Shown here: one piece after another, positions 2,118-57,997 of the stretch
Numbering within the stretch: the stretch's first letter is position 1
Layout: the number at the start of each line of letters is the position of its first letter
Assembly: GCA_951406725.2 (NCBI GenBank)
Contig: OX597831.1
Span: forward strand, 44,268,001-44,332,000
Length of the DNA stretch: 64,000 bases
Reading direction: 5' to 3'
Origin: Octopus vulgaris
Taxonomy: Eukaryota
Program-made: the position numbers and the translations under genes
The notes under the pieces: generated by a model
Seen by the model: only the letters and a program-made list of their open reading frames with translations
Told to the model about the DNA's origin: nothing
The model's database searches: none

Positions 2118-2185
2118 AATGTAGAACAGAAATTGGAGCAATTCGCAAAATTAGACACTCAGTATCTTAATATTCTATGTGTTTA

Positions 2186-2771
2186 AGGCAGCGAGCTGGC
2201 AGAAACGTTAGCACGCCGGGCGAAATGCGTAGCTGTATTTCGTCTGCCGTTACGTTCTGAGTTCAAATTCCGCCGAGGTCGACTTTGCCTTTCATCCTTT
2301 CGGGGTCGATAAATTAAGTACCAGTTACGCACTGGGGTCGATGTAATCGACTTAATCCCTTTGTCTGTCCTTGTTTGTCTCCTCTGTGTTTAGCCCCTTG
2401 TGGGCAGTAAAGAAATAGGTATTTCGTCTGTCTTTACGTTCTGAGTTCAAATACCACCAAGGTCGGCTTTGCCTTTCATCCTTTCGGGGTTGATTAAATA
2501 AGTATCAGTTACGCACTGGGGTCGATATAATCGACTTAATCCGTTTGTCTGTCCTTGTGTGTCCCTTCTGTGTTTAGCCCCTTGTGGGCAGTAAAGAAAT
2601 AGGTATTTCGTCTGTCTTTACGTTCTGAGTTCAAATTCTGCGGAGGTCGACTTTGCCTTTCATCCTTTCGCGATCGATAAATTAAGTACCAGATACGTAC
2701 TGGGGTCGATCTAATCGACTGGCTCCACCCTCCCCCAAAATTTCGGTCCTTGTGCCTAGAGTAGAAAAGAA
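2186..2771 (+). mobile_element. tRNA-derived SINE family B, one head plus three tandem bodies
   Basis: Head GGCAGCGAGCTGGCAGAAACGTTAG, B-box-like GTTCAAATTCC, core GTCGACTTTGCCTTTCATCCTTTCGGGGTCG repeated three times. Confidence 0.8.
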
Positions 2772-3132
2772 CATTTCCATGTGTTTGTGAAGCAAACGGC
2801 TTGTAAAAGTTAAACAATGGATCAAAAACAATTAGTTTCTTGATATATATAAATCCAAAAGCCACATTGTAACGATGTTCTTTAAAAGAGCTCTCGACTA
2901 CAGGAAATAGAAAACAATGAAAGTAAGGCAGGACAGAAGCAAAGAAGTCGTATAAGCAGTATAACTATAACAGATTTAGTGATGTTAATGCATACAGTCT
3001 CGAGTTCAAATCTGCTTATAGAACTCTTAGAAAACTATGGAACAATGCAAAATGCGTGTGATGAGTATCTGTGATGATTAAGAAATAAAAGCATGATATC
3101 GTGAACAAGAAAACCTGTAGTGAATCGTTAAA

Positions 3133-4425
3133 TACGAGAGGCGGCAGAAAGTTCATAAGCTGACCAAGATATTCTCATGGGATATAACCAAATGAAGTTT
3201 ATTTTTCAATATAGTTCCCCTTGCAGTCCACATATTTTTTCCATTAGTGTTGCAGTGCTTGGATCTTATTGGTGAAGAAGCTTTCACCCTGTTGCTCAAA
3301 AAATTCATCAACAGACATGACGTCATCGTCACTGCGATACTACTTCACAGCCAAGTGTTTTTTTCATGTTGGGGAATAGATGACAGTTTGACGGGGCCAA
3401 AACAAGGAAATAGGGAGGTTGATCAACCAGTTCAAGGCCACAGTCATGCAAAGCAGCCATTAAAACCATGGACTTGTGTGCTGGGGCATTATTCCTATGA
3501 AACGAGACTCCTTTCGTCAGTTTTCCTGAGCTGTTGGTCTTGATAGCCTTTCGTAGCTGCCTCAGCAAGATGGCATAATACTCTCCATTGATGGTGTGGC
3601 TCTTTTAAAGATAGCCAATAAACACAATGTCTTTTGCACCTCAAAAAACTGAGGTCATTACCTTCCCTGCAGATGAAACGAATTTGGCCTTCTTTGCTGC
3701 TGGAGAGGAGGGATGTTTTCACTGCATTAATTGTCTCTTTGTCTCTGGCTCAAAGCGATGAACCCAACACACATCCTCGGTTAGGAAGCATTCAAGGAAA
3801 CCATCAGGCTCTACTTGAAACAATGTCAGATTTTCTCGTGATATGATCAGCCTGGTGTGCTTTTGATCAGATATCAGAAGACATGGCAACCACAGAGCAG
3901 AAACCTTTGTCGTACCAAGTTCTTTGTGCAGAATATTCTCAAGTGTCTCGCGGGATATGCTAATAACATTGGCTGTTCGATTTATGGTCAAACGCCTGTC
4001 ATCCATCACCATGTGGTAAAACGATCAATATCAACCTCGGTTGTCGGACGTCTAGACTTTGAATCATTTTTAGATTCTCCCTTCCCCTCTAAAATTCAGC
4101 TGTCCACTTTCGTACTCTCGATAAAGCTGGAGTGTCGTTCCCTATTGTAGCAACCATGTCAGCATGAATGCCCTTGGGAACTAAACCTTTCCCCCCTTTT
4201 TTTGCAGGTACTTCCTAACACCACAATGCCAAATTTTCTCGATTTTCAAGAGAAGTCGCAACCAGTTACCTTTGAAGTCTTCCTTGAACAGTCAAGTGTC
4301 TGTTTACCTAGAAAAAAAAACAATGTAGATATTAATAAGAGTTAAAATTAATGCATGAAAGATTTCACAGCTCTAGCAATACTCCTTCGTAGTCAGCCTG
4401 TGAACTTTTCAAACCTGCCTCGAAT
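3133..4425 (-). mobile_element. Full-length degenerate mariner element; transposase pseudogene at about 3199-4240
   Basis: TIRs TACGAGAGGCGGCAGAAAGTTCATAAGCTGAC / GTCAGCCTGTGAACTTTTCAAACCTGCCTCGAATA. Fragments KVSALWLPCLL (WVPRLL), FHRNNAPAH (HDNAPAH) and PPYFLVLAPSNCHLF (PPYSPDLAPSD) with stops and frameshifts. Confidence 0.9.
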
Positions 4426-4599
4426 AGTCGTTTCACCGGCAGAGTGCTATTTAGATCAAATGAAATTATTAATTCATATAAAGATTGTACTGAAAATATT
4501 GCAAAAGTAGAGTATAATTATTTTTATTAAATGAGGTGGGTCGTTCAAATTACATATGCGGGCAGAGTAACTCTTTCTCCATAGTAACTCGCCATCATT

Positions 4600-11706: not shown

Positions 11707-13176
11707 ATATGAATTATGATATCTTTGTCGGATGATAGAACTTCATTTGAGGGAGATATATGTACTATTTCTAGTACACCAAGACACCGCGTAGAAGCGC
11801 TAGCCGTTGGTAATGGAATTCAAGGATTGGCTTAACGATTGCCATTGTAACTCTTTCATATTTGGTTTCTTTCGAAAATATTGGTTTGAGATGTTTGCAC
11901 AAGGCCAGCTATTCGCTATTACATCGACCCCCTAAGGTCAACTGGTACTTATTTTATCGATCCCGAAAGGATGAAAAGCAAAGTAGACACCGGCGGAATT
12001 TGAACTCGGAACGTAAAGACAGACGAAATGTCGCTGATAATTTTATCCGGCTGGGTAACAATTTGGCGAACTCGCCATCTTGGTTACTTTTGAAAACATA
12101 GGTTTCAAATTTTGTCACAAGACCGGTAATTTCGGGTAGGGGTAAGGTTATGTCGATTCCATCGGCTCCCAAAGGTTAACAGGTACTTATTTTATCGACC
12201 CCGAATGGGATGACAGGCAAAGTCGCCCTTGACAAAATTTGAACTCAGAACACAAAGCCGAACGGAATGACGCTAATGATTTTTTCCATCTCACCGCCTT
12301 GTTTTCTTTTTAAAATATTACCGCAATAATTGAAATAGCTTCGAATGAGAACCGAACCTGGTTCCAGGCGACTCATCACTGCCAAAATCTCGCTACACCC
12401 GGTGCAACAACCAACGTTGTTCCACAAATGACTGATAAGTGTGTTACTCTGATAATCAGCAGCTTTATGATTTAATCGTCTTTAAATAGATGAAATATTA
12501 ATTCTGACTTACGCGAACGACGTTTTCCATTTTTCTTCTTTCCTTATTTTTTTTCCCCTCACTAATCTTGTAGATAAGCAACATAATATATTAATACCAT
12601 ACTTTTCTCTCTGTTTGATATATTTCTACTCACACATACCAAGAAAGTTATTATCAGTATCATTATTATTGTTGTTGTTATTAAGATAATCAGTAATGTA
12701 TTCGATGGGTTCTCAGATGAACTTTCGGCGCATTTTTGCCAATATCAATGCTTTTAAAGTCGAAAATGTTGTTAATATTTAACTAATTTTCCCTTGTCCT
12801 TCATCCACTCGAAACATCTAAACAGAAAGTGGAATAATAACTTCACTATGAGAGAATTAAATCACAGCATTGTAAACTACGGTGAAAGATGAATAACGAT
12901 CCATAGCTAAAACGGTTAAGTCAGCTTTGCAGAAACTTGGTGCTAGGGTATAAAGGAATAGTGGCAGAGGCAGTTGTGATGGTGGCGGTGGTGATGAAGA
13001 AACTAATCCCTTGCTTTCCAAAGTGCACCTATCGGTAAATTCAGGGCTTATCTCCAACATCCAACCTCCGATCTCTATATATTTTAGCGAGGAACACATA
13101 GCTCGCGTCTCTTGATAAGCATGCAAGTATGATGGGTAAATTTAACCGCCGGAGAAATTGTTTTTCAACATACTCA

Positions 13177-13472
13177 GAGCTAGGTGAACTACCACCAACC
13201 CTTTCTACCTACATAGAGCTAAATGAACTAGACCAAACTGTTTTACCTACATAGGTTAAGTTCACTTAACCAACCTCTTTTACCCGGAAGCACTAGATGA
13301 ACTGAGCCAATCTGTTCTACCTACATTGAGTTAAGTGAACTATACCAACCTATTCTCCCTAGAAGCACTAGATAAACTATGGCAACCCGTTCTACCTTCA
13401 TACACCTAAGTAAACTAGCCCAGCCTGTTCTACCTACATAGTTTTAAGTGAACTATTCCAACCTGTTATACC
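13177..13472. repeat. Degenerate ~37-39-bp minisatellite, about 8 units
   Basis: Recurring unit close to GAGCTAAGTGAACTAGACCAACCTGTTCTACCTACATA. Confidence 0.7.
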
Positions 13473-21055: not shown

Positions 21056-21246
21056 TTTATACATTTATCAATTCAAATAAACAAACAATTCAAATAAACG
21101 AAGAAAATACGAAGAAAAAACAACGAACGTGAGGACGTGCACAAGAAGTATATTAGCTTGACGCTCGGTAAAAAGAGAGAGTTTGACGTTTCGAGCATAG
21201 CCCTTCGTCGGAAAGGAGGAAGGGAAAAGTTCTATATATACATATA

Positions 21247-22458
21247 TATATAGTCAAATCGAATGTTAAAAGTTGAGCAATCGAATATTAAGAATAACAA
21301 TAACAAAGCAAGAGGACGTACGCTTGGAATATATTAGATTCGCGCTCGGTAAAAGTGGAAAAAAGAGAAGAAAGAGTGGATTTTTAACGTTTCGAGTATA
21401 GCTCTTCGTCAGAAAAGAAAACAGAGAAGGCCAGAGAAGGAACAATTTTACGAACAGCGCGTGTATATATAAGCTCTCTGAACATCTGCATCAAGAAGCG
21501 CCCATCGTCACCACATCTTATTGCCGTGCTGTGTCAATAAATATCGGAAGATGAAAATTTGTCTCAACGGTGACCAGTAAGAATACTAGATATTTGTTGC
21601 CTCCGATATAGGAACTCGTTAATAATACATTTACTGATATTGCCAACAGCTGCCGGGCTGAATGAATAATTTGGTGAATGCAAATGAAGCAGTATTTAAT
21701 TAAAATAGACATCTCTGTATCAGATTTAATGTATATAAACACTGGCAAGTAATTTACTGCGGTTATTGTCTTAGATAAAATCGATAATGGATGAGCAGTG
21801 TTTAAAAATGCAACATATTGGAGGAAAACAAAGCAGCGAGGCGGCAGAATCGTTAACATGCCGGGTAGAATGCTTGGCAGTATTTCGTCCGCCTTTATGT
21901 TCTGAGTTCAAATTTCGACGCGGTCGACTTTCCCTTTCAACCTTTCCGGGGTCTATAAAATAAGAACCATTTGACAACTGGACCAAGTTCAGTTCTTACT
22001 CGAAGCTATTTCAATTACTGCAGCAATATTTTCAAAAAAAAAACTAAGGAGGTAAGCTGACAAAATTGTTACTCTGCCGGACAAAACATTAGCGGTATTT
22101 CGACCAACAAATATCTAGCATTCTTACTGGTCGCCGTTGAGACAAATTTTCATCTTCCGATATTTATTGACACAGCTAGGCAATAAGATGTGGTGACGAT
22201 GGGCGCTTCTTGATGCAGATGTTCAGAGAGCTTATATATACACGCGCTGTTCGTAAAATTGTTCCTTCTCTGGACTTCTCTGTTTTCTTTTCTGACCAAG
22301 AGCTGTACTCGAAACGTTAAAAATCCACTCTTTCTTCTCTTTTTTCCACTTTTACCGAGCGCGAATCTAATACATTCCAAGCGTACGTCCTCTTGTTTTG
22401 TTATTGTTATTCTTAATATTCGATTGCTCAACTTTTAACATTCGATTTGACTATATAT
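21247..22458. repeat. ~353-bp inverted repeat (21247-21599 / 22105-22458), ~505-bp spacer
   Basis: The arms are near-exact reverse complements, and each contains a Penelope-type hammerhead-like motif. Confidence 0.9.
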
Positions 22459-23422: not shown

Positions 23423-23505
<83 letters not shown>

Positions 23506-23667
23506 TTATCGCCATACTAATATGGCATTCTTATAAAAATAAGAATAAAGCTGACCGCTTATTAGCTCCATGAGGCCATCGCCTTAAGTTAGCTATTTGA
23601 TACACAAACTGTATCCATATAACCTTTGAACAAGGGAGGTCAGTCGCTCCACACTACTTAGCCGGCA

Positions 23668-23709
23668 GCTACAGACGCGTTTCGGGGTATTGCCCCTTTT
23701 CAATGCAGC
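23668..23709 (-). ncRNA. putative type I hammerhead ribozyme (U3-A8 variant)
   Basis: Reverse complement of the motif at 24191-24232. Confidence 0.7.
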
Positions 23710-24190
23710 GTAGCCAAACCAGTAGGTGTCGCTTCTGACAATCTCTGTTCAAAGGTTTTATTTACCTAGCTTCGGTGGAATACATCCACTTGTTTTCAAT
23801 AATAGAAATATTAAAATTACTAAGTCTCTCTAAAAGAGAACAACGGCAGCGTTCCCGGAAAATATTAGTTATCGCCATACTAATATGGCATTCTTATAAA
23901 AATAAGAATAAAGCTGACCGCTTATTAGCTCCATGTATCAAATAGCTAACTTAAGGCGATGGCCTCATGGAGCTAATAAGCGGTCAGATTTATTCTTATT
24001 TTATAAGAATGCCATATTAGTATGGCGATAACTAATATTTTCCGGGAACGCTGCCGTTGTTCTCTTTTAGAGAGACTTAGTAATTTTAATATTTCTATTA
24101 TTGAAAACAAGTGGATGTATTCCACCGAAGCTAGGTAAATAAAACCTTTGAACAGAGATTGTCAGAAGCGACACCTACTGGTTTGGCTAC

Positions 24191-24232
24191 GCTGCATTGA
24201 AAAGGGGCAATACCCCGAAACGCGTCTGTAGC
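24191..24232 (+). ncRNA. putative type I hammerhead ribozyme (U3-A8 variant)
   Basis: Helix I GCTGCA/TGTAGC; core TTGAAAA; helix II GGGG-CAATA-CCCC; GAAA; palindromic helix III ACGCGT; GTC cleavage triplet (C24226). Confidence 0.75.
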
Positions 24233-24553
24233 TGCCGGCCAAGTAGTGTGGAGCGACTGACCTCCCTTGTTCAAAGGTTATATGGATACAGTTTGTGTAT
24301 CAAATAGCTAACTTAAGGCGATGGCCTCATGGAGCTAATAAGCAGTCAGCTTTATTCTTATTTTTATAAGAATGCCATATTAGTATGGCGATAACTAATA
24401 TTTTCCGGGAACGCTGCCGTTGTTCTCTTTTAGAGAGACTTAGTAATTTTAATATTTCTATTATTGAAAACAAGTGGATGTATTCCACCGAAGCTAGGTA
24501 AATAAAACCTTTGAACAGAGATTGTCAGAAGCTACACCTACTGGTTTGGCTAC

Positions 24554-24595
24554 GCTGCATTGAAAAGGGGCAATACCCCGAAACGCGTCTGTAGC
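24554..24595 (+). ncRNA. putative type I hammerhead ribozyme, copy 2
   Basis: Identical motif, 363 bp downstream. Confidence 0.75.
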
Positions 24596-24916
24596 TGCCG
24601 GCCAAGTAGTGTGGAGCGACTGACCTCCCTTGTTCAAAGGTTATATGGATACAGTTTGTGTATCAAATAGCTAACTTAAGGCGATGGCCTCATGGAGCTA
24701 ATAAGCAGTCAGCTTTATTCTTATTTTTATAAGAATGCCATATTAGTATGGCGATAACTAATATTTTCCGGGAACGCTGCCGTTGTTCTCTTTTAGAGAG
24801 ACTTAGTAATTTTAATATTTCTATTATTGAAAACAAGTGGATGTATTCCACCGAAGCTAGGTAAATAAAACCTATGAACAGAGATTGTCATAAGCGACAC
24901 CTACTGGTTTGGCTAC

Positions 24917-24958
24917 GCTGCATTGAAAAGGGGCAATACCCCGAAACGCGTCTGTAGC
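24917..24958 (+). ncRNA. putative type I hammerhead ribozyme, copy 3
   Basis: Identical motif, 726 bp downstream of the first. Confidence 0.75.
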
Positions 24959-25184
24959 TGCCGGCCAAGTAGTGTGGAGCGACTGACCTCCCTTGTTCAA
25001 AGGTTATATGGATACAGTTTGTGTATCAAATAGCTAACTTAAGGCGATGGCCTCATGGAGCTAATAAGCGGTCAGCTTTATTCTTATTTTTATAAGAATG
25101 CCATATTAGTATGGCGATAACTAATATTTTCCGGGAACGCTGCCGTTGTTCTCTTTTAGAGAGACTTAGTAATTTTAATATTTC

Positions 25185-25263
<79 letters not shown>

Positions 25264-26527: not shown

Positions 26528-26998
26528 TAAAATTTACAGAAAACAAAACATGAGGACAGTTGTAGGAACAAGCAGGTATATTAGGTTCACACTCGAGGAG
26601 AATGGAAAAGCCTTTTATGTTTCGAGCCTACGCTCTTCGACAGAAAGGATTGAAAGGAAAACAAAACAAAGAAAGAATGAAAAAATACGGAGTGAGAAAA
26701 TAATATGTAGAGAAAAAACGTATTTATATAGTCAAAAATATATATACAGTCAAAAATTGTGAAGCATGACTGTCACTACTACTACATGAACCTGAAGATT
26801 GCATAATTTAATGCATGAAAGTACTAGTTCAATCAGAATGAACATTTAACATTCTACTATTTTATTTTATTCTATTATATTATCTTATATTATATCATTA
26901 TAAGATTGTAAATAAAACGTGAAAATCAGACAAGGTTGGAATTCCTTTTATTAATATATTCTTCTATACACAATCACACACACCCGTATATATATCTA

Positions 26999-30158: not shown

Positions 30159-30238
30159 TTGAATGAAGATATAACGATTACGGAATCAGATAAAGGAAGT
30201 GCAGTGGTAATAATGGACACATTATACTATAGAAATCT
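30159..30238 (+). pseudogene. Penelope-like RT N-terminal fragment running into the gap
   Basis: NEDITITESDKGSAVVIMDTLYY matches the PLE 'DKG..VVIMD..Y' motif. Confidence 0.65.
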
Positions 30239-30338
30239 NNNNNNNNNNNNNNNNNNNNNNNNNNNNNNNNNNNNNNNNNNNNNNNNNNNNNNNNNNNNNN
30301 NNNNNNNNNNNNNNNNNNNNNNNNNNNNNNNNNNNNNN
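30239..30338. other. assembly gap (100 N)
   Basis: Run of N. Confidence 1.
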
Positions 30339-43056: not shown

Positions 43057-43098
43057 CCTTTTCTCTCTCCTTTTCCTTTTTTGCACTTTTATCGGAAC

Positions 43099-46000
43099 AT
43101 GCTCAGAATAGGTAGTATAAATGTACGTGGCTTGGGGTCGCCTTGGAAACAAGGCTACCTGTTAAATGACATCAAGTCACTAAATCTGAATATAATAGCC
43201 ATCAGTGAGACCAGACTCCACAGCTTGCGGGCACTCCAGCACATTTTCGGTACACATTTCAACATTTATTTTTCTCCGTGTCTACCGAGAATGGGCGGAG
43301 GTGGCACCGCGGTGCTTATCCGGAAGAGTCTGGATCTCAAAGTAAGAGCAAATTTCCTAGACCCGGAGGGTAGGCTGGTCGTTTTGGATGTCGATGGCAG
43401 CAATGAGTGTGCTTTTCGACTGATAGCAGTTTATGCTCCGTCCTTAACAGGCCGACCAGATTTCTTTCGACGTCTAGAGTCTTTCATGGGAACGTCTCGT
43501 CCTTTACTTTTAGTGGGGGATTGGAATGCCACCCTGGACACGCATCTAGACTACGTGGGCAGAGATAGCAATAGAAGGGGATGCAAATGCCTCAAAGACC
43601 TGCTCAGACGTTTCCAACTGTCTGACAGGTACCGACTGGACCACCCGAATGTGCCAATGTGGACATGGAGTAACCGCATCGGGTCGTCCAGATCATACTT
43701 AGATAGAGTATTCTGTAGGACAATAGATAAAAATAGTGTAGGTTGTCCACAATTTCATATAGTCAGTTACACAGATCACAAGTTTGTGACTTGTACACTT
43801 GACTTAGATAAGACACATAGGCAGGGTCCTGGTTACTGGAAACTGAACGCGTCTTTTACAGCACGACAGGTTTACAGGGACCGGATCAGCACATTAGTTA
43901 AGAGAGCTTTGACGGGTACCATCATCAACAACAGATGGTGGTATTCCCTAAAAAAAGCGATTAAAGCAGAATCAGTCAGATACAGTAGAGCCCTAGCATT
44001 AGACCGAAATAGAGTAGAGGGAGAATTAGTTAAGGTTTTAGAAGAGGCACTTAGAACTGGCATCGCGTCCAACGTACTGGCGGCGAGATTGGCCCTCGAC
44101 CAACACCTCAACGCCAAACACGAGGGATGCGTTGTCAGAGCTAGGATGCGTGCTCTGAGGAACGAAGGAGTTGGAGCCGCCCAAGAGGCCCGAGTGGTGG
44201 AGACGCAACGAGGCAACAGAGCCACCATCAAGTCTCTTATAGATGAACAGGGGCGCGAATTACTCGAGCCTAAAAGGATGTGTGGGGTTTTTCAACAACA
44301 CTTCACCCAACTGTTTGGGACAAGTGGTGAGTCAGAAAGCAGAGTGGACTTTAGTGCCTACCTGCATGCCTTGCCACGACTCTCAGCAAGGGAGGTGGAG
44401 TCTTGTGAAAAGCCTATCACAGCTGCGGACGTACAGGATGCGATGGTAGGCTGCGCGAGAGACAAGTCACCAGGCTTGGATGGTCTGCCCTACGAATTTT
44501 ATTTTCATATGCCAGACTTGTTTGGAGGCGTCTTGGCAGCTGTCTACTGCAACTGGCAGCAAAACGGGAGTATTCCTGCTTTTGTAAAGCGAGGAGCAGT
44601 GGCACTGATCAAGAAATACCCAAACAAGGGGGACGTCATAGATAATTTCAGGCCCATCACTCTGCTCAACGCAGATTTGAAAATTTTGGCCAAGGTGTTA
44701 GCCGAGAGGTTGGCGCTTGTCATCAAGAAACTAATCGACAAGGCGCAAACATGCGCCGTGCCGGGTAGAAGTATTCATGACAACCTCCATCTGATGCGCT
44801 ACATCATAGACAGGGTAGTTAAAAATCCTGGCATGGGTGGGGCGCTGATCAATTTGGATCAATCAAAAGCCTTCGATAGGGTAGACCATCACTACTTGGA
44901 GGCTGTCCTCAAAGCGGCTGGTTTCGGTCCAGTTTTCCGCAGTTGGATCGCTGCCTTATACAGCGGCATCCGCTCAGTAGTTCGCGTAAATGGTCATCTA
45001 TCCAGACCTTTTAACATCATGCGTTCGGTTCGTCAAGGATGCCCCCTCTCATCGCTGCTGTATGTACTGACTCTTGAGCCACTACTGCGGAAACTGGCGA
45101 CGCTGAGGGGCATCCCACGAGAGCTGGGATGCGGGAGGAGCGTGTCTGCATACGCGGATGACGTCACCGTCATAGTGTCGAGCTACGAGCACATCGAGCT
45201 GGTCGGCGAGACACTGAAAGAATACGAAGCGGTAACGGGAGCAAAAATTAACCGGGAAAAGTCAGTGGGCTTGCGGCTCGGCACCTGGAGAAGCAAGCCC
45301 ATGCCGTCCAACAGCGTCTCCATCGTGGGACGCTGGACGGACGGACCGGTTAAATTGCTCGGGGTCTGGTTCGGTCCGGACCTCCAAATGGAGAAGAACT
45401 GGGGCGAGATAACGACTAGGGTGGCTACTCTCACCCAGAAATGGACTGAGAGAAAGCTATCCCTAAAAGGTCGGGCGGAGGTGGCGAACGCGTACATCGC
45501 ATCCGTCATCGAGTACCGTCTGACCGTCGTGCCTTGTCCCGACCCTACCATCACCAAACTGGAACGCATACTCTTCCGCTTCTTGTGGAAGGGAAACGTT
45601 CCGATGGTCAGGCGATCCATTTGCTGCCAACACCCGCTAAATGGAGGGCTGGGCATGCCGTGGTTGATGATGCGCAGACATGCGCTGAGACTGCGACATC
45701 TCCGGCGCTTCATAGACAACGGTGAACAGGGGTGGTCGCCTTTTGTGCGGCGCGCTTTCCCGCAGCTCGTCTCCTTGGACGAACTACAGTCATGGATCAA
45801 GCAGAGACCGAGGCTAGGCGAATGGCACCGTGAGTGTCGCGTTGCTCTCAAGCAACTCTGCCGTCCGGGATCGAACTTGTGCGACTCCATCACAACAAAG
45901 GCATTCTATAGAGGATTAGTGGAGGGGAGGTGCGACGACGAACTCGGGCAGAGTCTGGGCGTCGACGAGGAACACCTGACCCGCCTGTTCAGGACAACTT

Positions 46001-46536
46001 TCGGGCCGGGACCTATGAACAATCACCAAAGATCCCTGGCCTGGCAGTGCTATCGAGAAGCATTACCTGTTCGGGATAAGCTCTACAGACACGGTTCCAG
46101 ACACACTGGACCGACTTGCCCGAGATGCGGTCAGAGCGACGAAACCGTTCTGCACGCACTCGTGCAATGTCCAACCATTTCCGACCTGTGGGCTTATGCC
46201 GAACGGCTGCTGTCACGTGTGGGACGAATCCGCCTATCGGCCGAGTCTATCGTGAGAATTGCTCCGCCCCCTTCCCTCAACCGGGAAGGCAAGGCAGTTT
46301 TCATCGTACTGGTGGCCATGGTGAAAGAATGTGTGTGGTGGACTCGAGCGAAAGGATTAGAGACAAACACTTACCTCTCTGGCCATTCGCTCATCAACTT
46401 TTTCAAGTACCACTTGAAAAGGAAGGTGAGAATGGAGAGGGAAGTTTTGTCTCGCGAAAGATTCAATAAAAGATGGGTGAATGTTGCAAAGATGGTGCGT
46501 GCTAGTAACGAAACCATTTTGAGCATGATCCTGTAG
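43099..46536 (+). CDS. ORF2p: APE endonuclease, reverse transcriptase and CCHC zinc finger (Tx1-like)
   Basis: APE motifs NVRG, SET, YAP, GDWN, LDR, TDH; GPGYWKLN; RT motifs KSPGLDG, RPITLLN, DQSKAFD, RQGCPLS, YADD; LSLKGR, GGLG; CPRC-x8-H-x4-C. Uninterrupted; first ATG at 43099. Confidence 0.96.
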   Translation: MLRIGSINVRGLGSPWKQGYLLNDIKSLNLNIIAISETRLHSLRALQHIFGTHFNIYFSPCLPRMGGGGTAVLIRKSLDLKVRANFLDPEGRLVVLDVDGSNECAFRLIAVYAPSLTGRPDFFRRLESFMGTSRPLLLVGDWNATLDTHLDYVGRDSNRRGCKCLKDLLRRFQLSDRYRLDHPNVPMWTWSNRIGSSRSYLDRVFCRTIDKNSVGCPQFHIVSYTDHKFVTCTLDLDKTHRQGPGYWKLNASFTARQVYRDRISTLVKRALTGTIINNRWWYSLKKAIKAESVRYSRALALDRNRVEGELVKVLEEALRTGIASNVLAARLALDQHLNAKHEGCVVRARMRALRNEGVGAAQEARVVETQRGNRATIKSLIDEQGRELLEPKRMCGVFQQHFTQLFGTSGESESRVDFSAYLHALPRLSAREVESCEKPITAADVQDAMVGCARDKSPGLDGLPYEFYFHMPDLFGGVLAAVYCNWQQNGSIPAFVKRGAVALIKKYPNKGDVIDNFRPITLLNADLKILAKVLAERLALVIKKLIDKAQTCAVPGRSIHDNLHLMRYIIDRVVKNPGMGGALINLDQSKAFDRVDHHYLEAVLKAAGFGPVFRSWIAALYSGIRSVVRVNGHLSRPFNIMRSVRQGCPLSSLLYVLTLEPLLRKLATLRGIPRELGCGRSVSAYADDVTVIVSSYEHIELVGETLKEYEAVTGAKINREKSVGLRLGTWRSKPMPSNSVSIVGRWTDGPVKLLGVWFGPDLQMEKNWGEITTRVATLTQKWTERKLSLKGRAEVANAYIASVIEYRLTVVPCPDPTITKLERILFRFLWKGNVPMVRRSICCQHPLNGGLGMPWLMMRRHALRLRHLRRFIDNGEQGWSPFVRRAFPQLVSLDELQSWIKQRPRLGEWHRECRVALKQLCRPGSNLCDSITTKAFYRGLVEGRCDDELGQSLGVDEEHLTRLFRTTFGPGPMNNHQRSLAWQCYREALPVRDKLYRHGSRHTGPTCPRCGQSDETVLHALVQCPTISDLWAYAERLLSRVGRIRLSAESIVRIAPPPSLNREGKAVFIVLVAMVKECVWWTRAKGLETNTYLSGHSLINFFKYHLKRKVRMEREVLSRERFNKRWVNVAKMVRASNETILSMIL

Positions 46537-52794: not shown

Positions 52795-53388
52795 AGGTGC
52801 ATGGCTCAGTGGTTAGAGCGTCGAGCTCACAATCATGAGGTAGTGAGTCCGATTCCCGGACCGGGATCTGTATTGTGTTCTTGAGCAAACGCTTTATTAC
52901 ACGTCGCCCCATTTCACTCTGCTGTAGAAATGAGTTCTGGCTTCACTGGTGCCAAGCTGTATTGGCCTTTGCCTTTCCTTTGGATAACATCAGGGACATG
53001 GAGATAGGGAGGCTGGTGTGCATGGGCGACTGCTGGTCTTCCATAAACAACCTTGTCCAGACATGTGCCACGGAGGGTAACTTTCTTGGCCTTTGCCTTT
53101 CCTTTGGATAACATCAGGGACATGGAGATGGGAGGCTGGTGTGCATGGGCGACTGCTGGTCTTCCATAAACAGCCTTGTCCAGACATGTGCCACGGAGGG
53201 TAACTTTCTTGGCCTTTGCCTTTCCTTTGGATAACATCAGGGACATGGAGATGGGAGGCTGGTGTGCATGGGCGACTGCTGGTCTTCCATAAACAACCTT
53301 GTCCAGACATGTGCCACGGAGGGTAACTTTCTAGGTGCAACAGCATGGTCGTTCATGACCGAAGGTGGGTCTTTATCCTTTTTTTTTT
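52795..53388 (+). mobile_element. tRNA-derived SINE with an internal 3 x 123-bp tandem (52962-53331)
   Basis: Head TGGCTCAGTGGTTAGAGCG...GATTCCCGG. Units start at 52962, 53086 and 53209; oligo-T end. Confidence 0.8.
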
Positions 53389-57400: not shown

Positions 57401-57997
57401 ATACCTATTTTTGTTTCTTTATTGCCAACAGGGGGCTAAACACAGAGAGGAAAAATGAAGGGATTAAGTCAATTACATCGACTCCAGTGCGTAACTAGTA
57501 CTTATTTAATCGAACCCGAAAGGATGAAAGGGAAAGTCGACCTCGGAGAAATGTGAACTCAGAATGTACCGGTAGACGAAATACCTATTTCTTTACTACC
57601 CACAAGGGGCTAAATACAGAGAGGACAAACAAGGACAGACAAACGGATTAAATCGATTATATCGACCCCAGTGCGTAACTAGTACTTATTTAATCGACCC
57701 CGAAAGGATGAAAGGCAAAGTCGACCTCGGCGGAATTTGATCTCAGAACGTAGCGGCAGACGAAGTACCTATTTCTTTACTACCCACAAGGGGCTAAACA
57801 CGGAGGGGACAAACAAGGACAGACAAACGGATTAAGTCGATTATATCGACCCCAGTGCGTAACTGGTACTTATTTAATCGACCCCGAAAGGATGAAAGGC
57901 AAAGTCGATCCCGGCGGAATTTTAACTCAGAACGTAGTGACAGACGAAATACCGCTAAGCATTTCGCCCGGCGTGCTAGCGATTCTACCAGCTCGCC
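57401..57997 (-). mobile_element. SINE family B, one head plus three tandem bodies
   Basis: ~185-bp units joined at TACCTATTT (about 57402, 57582 and 57767), with a single head at the right end. Confidence 0.85.

What the first reader, a model, noticed from the sequence alone, without database searches (positions are those of the whole stretch)
23501..25190. Non-coding 363-bp tandem/inverted array with a hammerhead ribozyme in each full unit (retrozyme/Penelope-like circRNA candidate)
Seen: nearly identical 363-bp units with no ORF. Each full unit contains GCTGCA-TTGAAAA-GGGG-CAATA-CCCC-GAAA-CGCG-TC-TGTAGC at 24191, 24554 and 24917 (+) and 23668-23709 (-). This maps onto a type I hammerhead in which the C3-G8 core pair is covaried to U3-A8, with a palindromic helix III (ACGCGT) and a GUC site. 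Established: minimal type I hammerheads with palindromic helix III occur in Penelope-like pLTRs and in tandem animal retrozymes, cleave as dimers, and can yield monomer-length circRNAs. Inference: a read-through transcript would be cut after 24226, 24589 and 24952 into 363-nt monomers. Near-identity of the units suggests a young family. I do not know whether this family has been described.
Basis: partly seen in the sequence, partly recalled or inferred. Interest (0 to 1): 0.88.

Follow-up and report, generated by a model that had tools for sequence, protein, structure and literature searches.

The report
Hammerhead retrozyme pasted in Penelope-style
This is one copy of a widely scattered 363-base non-coding repeat that carries a predicted self-cutting RNA motif and sits in TA microsatellites as two back-to-back arms starting at two fixed points, a known kind of animal genomic parasite whose insertion pattern suggests a Penelope-type retrotransposon enzyme likely copies one RNA circle from both cut DNA strands.

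Summary
Observation confirmed; it is one insertion of a dispersed family, not a local satellite. The 363-bp ORF-less unit carries a type I U3-A8 hammerhead (784 exact core copies genome-wide, control 0) in four subfamilies up to ~19% apart, with compensatory changes in helices I, II and the palindromic helix III. Insertions sit in (TA)n with Penelope hallmarks: two fixed 3' ends 63 nt apart (u175, u238), variable 5' ends, head-to-head arms. In 55 of 57 classifiable inverted pairs one arm starts at each site. Both arms share one haplotype (36 of 40). Copying runs through the ribozyme site (60 of 61 approaches). Best reading: a non-LTR retrozyme, likely cut to monomers, circularised and reverse-transcribed in trans by a Neptune-type Penelope protein priming from both nicked strands. 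Intact Neptune-type elements here have the same hammerhead variant, tail and target, but no parent was found. Cleavage, expression and circles are untested; an uncut linear multimer remains possible. Known kind, new family. This scan noted the same pattern before on other DNA (21 findings).

The parts
23426..23502 (.). Left (TA)n target microsatellite
23499..23935 (-). Inverted arm, 437 nt (1.2 units): 3' end at the short site u175 (window 23499), 5'-truncated at u102
23668..23709 (-). Type I hammerhead (U3-A8), predicted cleavage after 23674
23934..23935 (.). Head-to-head junction of the two arms with 2-nt microhomology (u102/u70); the same junction occurs in L058
23934..25190 (+). Tandem arm, 1257 nt (3.46 units): 5'-truncated at u70, 3' end at the tailed site u238 (window 25190)
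24191..24232 (+). Hammerhead 1, predicted cleavage after 24226
24227..24589 (+). Predicted 363-nt monomer (u1-u363); u1-57 pairs with u275-333 and holds the two cut ends together; 40% GC
24554..24595 (+). Hammerhead 2, predicted cleavage after 24589
24590..24952 (+). Second predicted 363-nt monomer
24917..24958 (+). Hammerhead 3, predicted cleavage after 24952
25128..25190 (+). 63-nt Penelope-type 'tail' (u176-u238) present on one arm only
25188..25258 (.). Right (TA)n target microsatellite

Best explanation
This is one insertion of a dispersed, protein-free hammerhead repeat (a non-LTR retrozyme) that lies in a TA microsatellite as two head-to-head arms, and it was likely pasted there by a Penelope-like retrotransposon protein that would copy a circular 363-nt RNA from both nicked DNA strands. 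Steps: (1) read-through transcription of an array gives multimeric RNA (inferred); (2) neighbouring hammerheads pair through the palindromic helix III and cut after GUC (fold predicted, covariation shown, cutting untested); (3) the monomer's ends are held together by the long stem and ligated, probably by RtcB (inferred from PMC7229834); (4) a Neptune-type RT/GIY-YIG protein acting in trans nicks both strands of (TA)n and primes one cDNA at u238 and the other at u175 (end pattern shown, enzyme inferred); (5) each RT runs 5'-ward through the ribozyme site, often more than once round, and tends to stop in the long stem (shown from copy ends); (6) the two cDNA ends join through a few bases of microhomology (junctions shown, mechanism inferred).
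For: 3' ends fixed: 93 of 103 arms in 60 position-ordered loci end at ~u175 or ~u238; 83 of 99 outer 3' ends abut (TA)n versus 7 of 21 outer 5' ends. One-of-each rule: of 68 inverted pairs, 57 had both ends classifiable and 55 were u175+u238 (31/31, 11/13, 13/13; P = 2e-14 against 0.5). Same template: arms fully concordant at common polymorphic sites in 36 of 40 pairs (shuffled mean 0.18, max 0.41); divergence 0.56% within arms, 0.79% between arms, 2.5% between insertions in 63 subfamily-A loci. Continuous template: in 43 loci chosen without the ribozyme, 60 of 61 approaches passed the cleavage site and 0 of 76 5' ends lay within 3 nt of it; arms reach 7.5 units; arrays of 900 nt or more occur in 8 haplotypes. 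Ribozyme under selection: 7 of 43 pairs change on both sides, 98.4% of cells pair. Window dimer's minimum-energy fold is the double hammerhead. Helper class present: 16 of 19 fetched PLE loci hold a 781-aa RT+GIY-YIG frame with a U3-A8 hammerhead, palindromic helix III, two 3' ends, TA target, and one tailed plus one short end in 2 of 2 inverted copies.
Against: No RNA, cleavage or circle was observed. Genomic arrays cannot separate a circle from an uncut linear multimer, and in the one PLE studied in vitro cleavage was not needed and unprocessed RNA was the main substrate (PMC11167929). No parent PLE: blastn found no similarity between the unit and the PLE loci examined beyond 13-26-nt AT-rich matches and one embedded retrozyme copy (150 of 6136 GIY-YIG candidates scored). 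The double-hammerhead fold was the minimum in only 2 of 5 natural dimers. Subfamily B is less uniform (1.9-2.0% within, 2.9% between). Post-insertion gene conversion could also homogenise arms. Two pairs break the rule (L009, L028). In the ribozyme-ascertained set 8 of 135 5' ends lie in u363-u8, about 3 expected (hand count). Li et al. saw cleavage in 1 of 9 retrozyme dimers. The covariation shuffle control does not correct for relatedness.
Confidence: 0.6

Rival explanations
1. Same PLE-driven double priming, but the template is an uncut or partly cut linear multimer; the hammerhead only frees the RNA from host read-through transcripts or is a relic of the parent pLTR.
For: Read-through of the cleavage site fits this equally; PAc uses unprocessed RNA and tolerates ribozyme mutants (PMC11167929); source arrays are themselves uniform, so daughters would be too; mild excess of 5' ends at u363-u8 in one set.
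Against: Linear copying cannot lengthen arrays, yet long arrays exist in 8 haplotypes. Recurrent within-array differences fall largely on CpG sites or arm ends, as expected of later mutation. 32 unpaired arms share no adjacent unique 5' flank, only a common dispersed repeat. Two insertions with the same junction (L003, L030) differ in haplotype in all units, so neither is a copy of the other. No arm of 76 ends at the cut site.
Confidence: 0.28
2. The two arms arise by fold-back self-priming of a single cDNA or antisense RNA (model proposed for PLE inversions in PMC3846280), not by two target-primed events.
For: Explains shared haplotype of the arms; a few junctions are near-symmetric (L071, L079).
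Against: The two 5' ends lie within 15 nt of each other in 5 of 54 junctions, 4.6 expected at random. Fold-back does not explain why the outer ends are one u175 and one u238 (55 of 57).
Confidence: 0.07
3. A satellite or DNA-mobilised repeat (unequal crossing-over, Helitron/MITE-like) in which the hammerhead is incidental.
For: Tandem units can be multiplied at the DNA level; one local duplication of a whole insertion was seen (L222); two adjacent window units share a CpG change at u118.
Against: Fixed 3' and variable 5' ends, tail, RNA-level covariation and stops at an RNA stem (30 of 135 5' ends in u31-62, P = 2e-6) point to reverse transcription.
Confidence: 0.05

Closest known systems
Metazoan non-LTR retrozymes (Cervera & de la Pena 2020, PMC7229834; mussel 350-390-bp units)
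   Same: Short non-coding tandem units, one type I hammerhead each, GC under 45%, strongly self-paired monomer, many copies, coexisting PLEs.
   Different: U3-A8 core; circles not shown here; that paper only proposed PLEs as candidate mobilisers and has 0 hits for 'target site', 'inverted', 'microsatellite', whereas this family shows the full PLE insertion footprint.
Animal retrozymes as non-autonomous PLE derivatives (Li, Clavereau & Pollet 2026, bioRxiv 10.64898/2026.07.22.740005)
   Same: Same class and same proposed helper.
   Different: Their evidence is co-occurrence and pLTR homology in Xenopus, and they discuss local tandem amplification; here no homologous pLTR was found, and the evidence is insertion anatomy pointing to arrays made during reverse transcription.
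Canonical EN+ Penelope-like elements, Neptune type (Craig et al. 2021 PMC8557442; Arkhipova et al. 2013 PMC3846280; Frangieh et al. 2024 PMC11167929)
   Same: 5' truncation, partial tandems, inverted 5'-truncated copy, tail on one end, two internal RT start sites, microsatellite target, hammerhead.
   Different: No ORF; tail is 63 nt rather than 30-40; Frangieh saw no difference in start site between strands in vitro and no homology to the target, while here each insertion uses one of each site and both sites end in TA-like bases.
PLE minimal hammerheads (Cervera & de la Pena 2014, PMC4209133)
   Same: U3-A8 core variant and small palindromic helix III working as a dimer.
   Different: Canonical 4-bp helix II and 6-bp helix I extended into a long rod rather than the long helix II / short helix I of min-HHRs.

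Membership tests
Type I hammerhead ribozyme (dimer type) | Conserved core with a 3-8 pair, GAAA and UH | tested here: met
   U3-A8 core in 22 of 22 aligned copies; position 7 varies A/C/T
Type I hammerhead ribozyme (dimer type) | Helices I and II supported by covariation | tested here: met
   Helix I pair G-C/G-U/A-U; helix II pair G-C/A-U
Type I hammerhead ribozyme (dimer type) | Short palindromic helix III able to pair between copies | tested here: met
   Palindrome kept through a double change between subfamilies; double hammerhead is the minimum-energy fold in 2 of 5 natural dimers
Type I hammerhead ribozyme (dimer type) | Match to an Rfam hammerhead model | tested here: not met
   No hammerhead hit at E<=10; whether the models cover U3-A8 variants was not checked
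Type I hammerhead ribozyme (dimer type) | Self-cleavage | not testable with these tools
   Needs in vitro transcription
Metazoan non-LTR retrozyme | Non-coding tandem units of a few hundred bp, each with a type I hammerhead, GC under 45% | tested here: met
Metazoan non-LTR retrozyme | Many genomic copies, highly self-paired monomer | tested here: met
   784 exact cores, 1340 with a relaxed pattern; z = -6.2
Metazoan non-LTR retrozyme | Expressed as linear and circular monomers | not testable with these tools
   Only assembled contigs of runs not on record as RNA were available
Non-autonomous Penelope-like element | 5' truncation, partial tandems, inverted 5'-truncated copy | tested here: met
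Non-autonomous Penelope-like element | Optional tail on one end (two 3' ends) | tested here: met
   u175/u238, 63 nt versus 30-40 nt in PMC8557442
Non-autonomous Penelope-like element | Microsatellite target bias | tested here: met
   83 of 99 outer 3' ends abut (TA)n
Non-autonomous Penelope-like element | Sequence homology to the pLTR of an autonomous PLE | tested here: inconclusive
   No blastn homology in the PLE loci fetched; subfamilies C/D share the 7-nt core and helix III with helper family F1; only 150 of 6136 candidates were scored
Autonomous Penelope-like element | RT + GIY-YIG ORF | tested here: not met
   No ORF in the unit; none beside 20 of 20 copies

The most novel reading that the evidence does not exclude
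Each insertion is the footprint of one dimeric Penelope protein that binds one small RNA circle, nicks both strands of a TA repeat, and starts two rolling-circle reverse transcriptions at two different fixed sites 63 nt apart, one per strand. This would explain at once the PLE tail, the head-to-head inversion and the tandem arrays, and would make a 363-nt ribozyme circle the minimal cis substrate for Penelope retrotransposition.
Probability: 0.45. Interest if true: 0.72.

Novelty: new member of a known kind. Interest (0 to 1): 0.5.

Why it matters
How PLEs make tandem/inverted insertions and what their hammerheads do are stated open questions (PMC8557442 section 15), and the helper of animal retrozymes has only been proposed (PMC7229834; Li et al. 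2026). This family gives hundreds of young insertions with a near-strict end rule, a 363-nt candidate substrate, and intact candidate helper proteins in the same genome, so the circle-versus-multimer and one-site-per-strand questions can be tested with the existing in vitro PLE assay. The element class, the U3-A8 variant and the PLE footprint are each already described, so the finding is a good test case rather than a new kind of system.

Tried and rejected
Rfam scan: no hammerhead, only low-complexity miRNA matches. Sequencing runs: no RNA holder listed; contigs of four runs hold the unit but cannot show expression, strand or circles; the control on a flanking stretch returned no result, so RNA status stays open. 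Search for the parent PLE: a loose end seen in two runs proved to be a single-locus flank (1 match); C3-G8 version of the motif gave 12 matches against 6 in the control; Pfam PF26215 (accession recalled) is not in the library; GIY-YIG loci from about ten sequence clusters showed no homology to the unit; 20 of 20 further copies had no PLE protein nearby. L003/L030 as a duplicated composite: rejected, flanks unrelated and haplotypes differ. Fold-back self-priming and cleaved linear monomer as template: not supported. 5' transduction: not seen in 32 unpaired arms. Helper ORF1: no informative Pfam or Atlas hit. Luense et al. (PMC5785218) is not held, so tested activity of U3-A8 dimer variants there was not seen. 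Sequence look-up in earlier scan findings was blank.

Full report
Numbering: u1 is the first base after the predicted cleavage site (window 24227); the unit is u1-u363.

Observation. The element runs 23499-25190: a minus arm of 437 nt and a plus arm of 1257 nt joined head to head with a 2-nt overlap, between two (TA)n runs. The unit has stops in all six frames, 40% GC and folds far better than its shuffles (z = -6.2), with u1-57 paired to u275-333 so that the ribozyme caps a long rod. Rfam does not call it. My descriptor hit 2 of 3000 resampled units.

A dispersed family. The own genome (G000, 2.8 Gb) has 863 candidates for the unit (40 scored), 784 exact copies of the 35-nt core (control 0), 1340 with a relaxed pattern and 2334 copies of a motif at u145-172. 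Subfamilies: A (window; 92-99%), B (~84-85%), C and D (~79-84%); C alone has 2836 candidates. Unit length stays 362-366 nt. Contigs of 4 of 4 runs laid, from three coded organisms, hold it.

The ribozyme is under selection. In 22 copies picked by hand from A, B and C, 98.4% of cells pair, and 7 of 43 pairs change on both sides, against 0-1 for slid partners. Helix I has three pair types at one position, the first pair of helix II swaps G-C for A-U, and helix III changes its two central bases together and stays palindromic. That last pair can only form between copies. The copies are related, so these are few events, not 22. The window's natural dimer folds at minimum energy into the double hammerhead (-190.2 versus -184.2 kcal/mol); this held for 1 of 4 other natural dimers.

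Insertion anatomy. Three samples were mapped: 21 of the 30 top-scoring loci (the other 9 overlap the same insertions), 60 loci taken in genome order from the listing, skipping three already held, and 20 further loci found by a motif outside the ribozyme. 3' ends fall at ~u175 or ~u238 (93 of 103 arms in the second sample) and abut (TA)n (83 of 99). Of 68 head-to-head pairs, 11 had one eroded or atypical end; of the other 57, 55 had one u175 and one u238 end. The exceptions are L009 and L028; two of the 55 are a local duplicate (L222), and the window is one of them. Junction overlaps are 2-4 nt in 29 of 54 against 17% at random, though BLAST extension may inflate this. The two 5' ends are unrelated (5 of 54 within 15 nt, 4.6 expected), which argues against fold-back.

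One continuous template. Subfamily A has many haplotypes, but an insertion has one: 0.56% divergence within arms, 0.79% between arms, 2.5% between insertions (63 A loci; L074, L079 and L091 left out as mixed or too diverged). Arms agree fully in 36 of 40 pairs. Of 102 rare alleles at sites covered three or more times, 90 are in one copy, 8 in all copies, 4 in a subset. Subfamily B (16 loci) shows a weaker contrast. Because the first two samples required an intact ribozyme, I repeated the 5'-end test on 43 loci from C1:1-117 Mb chosen by the other motif (20 new, 23 already held): 60 of 61 approaches passed the cleavage site, 0 of 76 ends lay within 3 nt of it, and 27 of 76 lay in u10-57, the 5' strand of the rod. 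So the template is a circle or an uncut multimer, not a cut monomer. I favour the circle because linear copying cannot lengthen arrays, yet arrays of 900 nt or more exist in 8 haplotypes and reach 7.5 units, and no source flank or source junction is carried along. This is inference; gene conversion and unequal crossing-over were not excluded.

The helper. PF01541 gives 6136 candidates (150 scored). One family has a 781-aa frame with RT, a CxxxxCxxC linker and GIY-YIG in 16 of 19 loci examined; the linker marks Neptune/Nematis in PMC8557442. Its terminal repeat has a U3-A8 hammerhead with a 6-nt palindromic helix III, two 3' ends about 31 nt apart, a TA target, and one tailed plus one short end in both inverted copies found. 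Its 7-nt core and helix III equal those of subfamilies C/D. Another PLE family also has U3-A8 with a different palindrome. None shows blastn homology to the unit, so the helper is identified by class only.

Literature seen. PMC4209133: parts 1-2 of 4 (U3-A8 in Schistosoma, dimers, circle hypothesis). PMC7229834: passages and parts 3-4 of 6. Li et al. 2026 preprint: parts 1-3 of 5 (methods, results, discussion); its supplements were not seen and could list related families. PMC8557442: passages and section 15. PMC11167929: parts 1-2 of 4. PMC3846280 and PMC6765202: passages. PMC5785218: not held. No supplements were read. Searches for octopus + hammerhead ribozyme, retrozyme + cephalopod, octopus + Penelope + Neptune + retrotransposon, and Penelope + twin priming + inverted + tail returned no description of this family or of the one-site-per-arm rule; Repbase, Dfam and subscription journals were not searchable. 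That the genome is a cephalopod is my recall from its repeats, not a tool result. Hammerhead numbering and the L1 twin-priming comparison are recalled.

Earlier scan notes. One search lists 21 findings with these words (8 shown): other units of 310-593 nt, in this and other genomes, read the same way. I reached my reading before opening them; they are unchecked and not counted as support.

Verdict. Real, well supported as a non-LTR retrozyme with a Penelope insertion footprint; new family of a known kind. Its value is the quantified end rule and a ready in vitro test. Interest 0.5.

Noticed in passing
L137:768-2207 and 2126-4471 (+); also L138, L140: The active Neptune-type PLE family has two overlapping frames: a 479-aa ORF1 with no informative Pfam or Atlas hit, and the 781-aa RT+GIY-YIG frame. 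Canonical EN+ PLEs are described as single-ORF (PMC8557442 abstract).
   Followed up: partly
window 26745-26959 (+): 3' end of a second PLE family (92% to L151) inserted after a TA run; carries a hammerhead-like motif at 26787-26831 with another 6-nt palindromic helix III.
   Followed up: partly
L003, L030, L058, window 23934: Junction hot spot at u102: L003 and L030 share junction and both arm lengths (74 and 1375 nt) with different haplotypes and unrelated flanks; the window and L058 share another u102 junction.
   Followed up: partly
L155:3605, L156:3267, L158:2946: A further PLE family has a U3-A8 hammerhead with a third palindromic helix III variant; U3-A8 seems common among PLEs of this genome.
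   Followed up: partly
window 43057-46536 (+): Uninterrupted 1159-aa frame that looks like an endonuclease + RT non-LTR retrotransposon ORF2 (L1/Tx1-like by recall).
   Followed up: no
window 21246-21599 and 22105-22458: 354-nt inverted repeat pair, 97% complementary, 505 nt apart; possible foldback or MITE-like element.
   Followed up: no
window 13176-13472; 52962-53332; 2235-2720; 57461-57953: Other tandem arrays: 38-bp, 123-bp (98% alike) and two 184-bp arrays.
   Followed up: no
L091 (G000:C15:38604208): An old, 74%-identical copy whose unique flank also appears in contigs of runs X2 and X6 from two coded organisms, suggesting a shared insertion.
   Followed up: partly
window 30159-30338: Weak 29-aa PLE-like tblastn match next to a 100-base N gap starting at 30239.
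   Followed up: no
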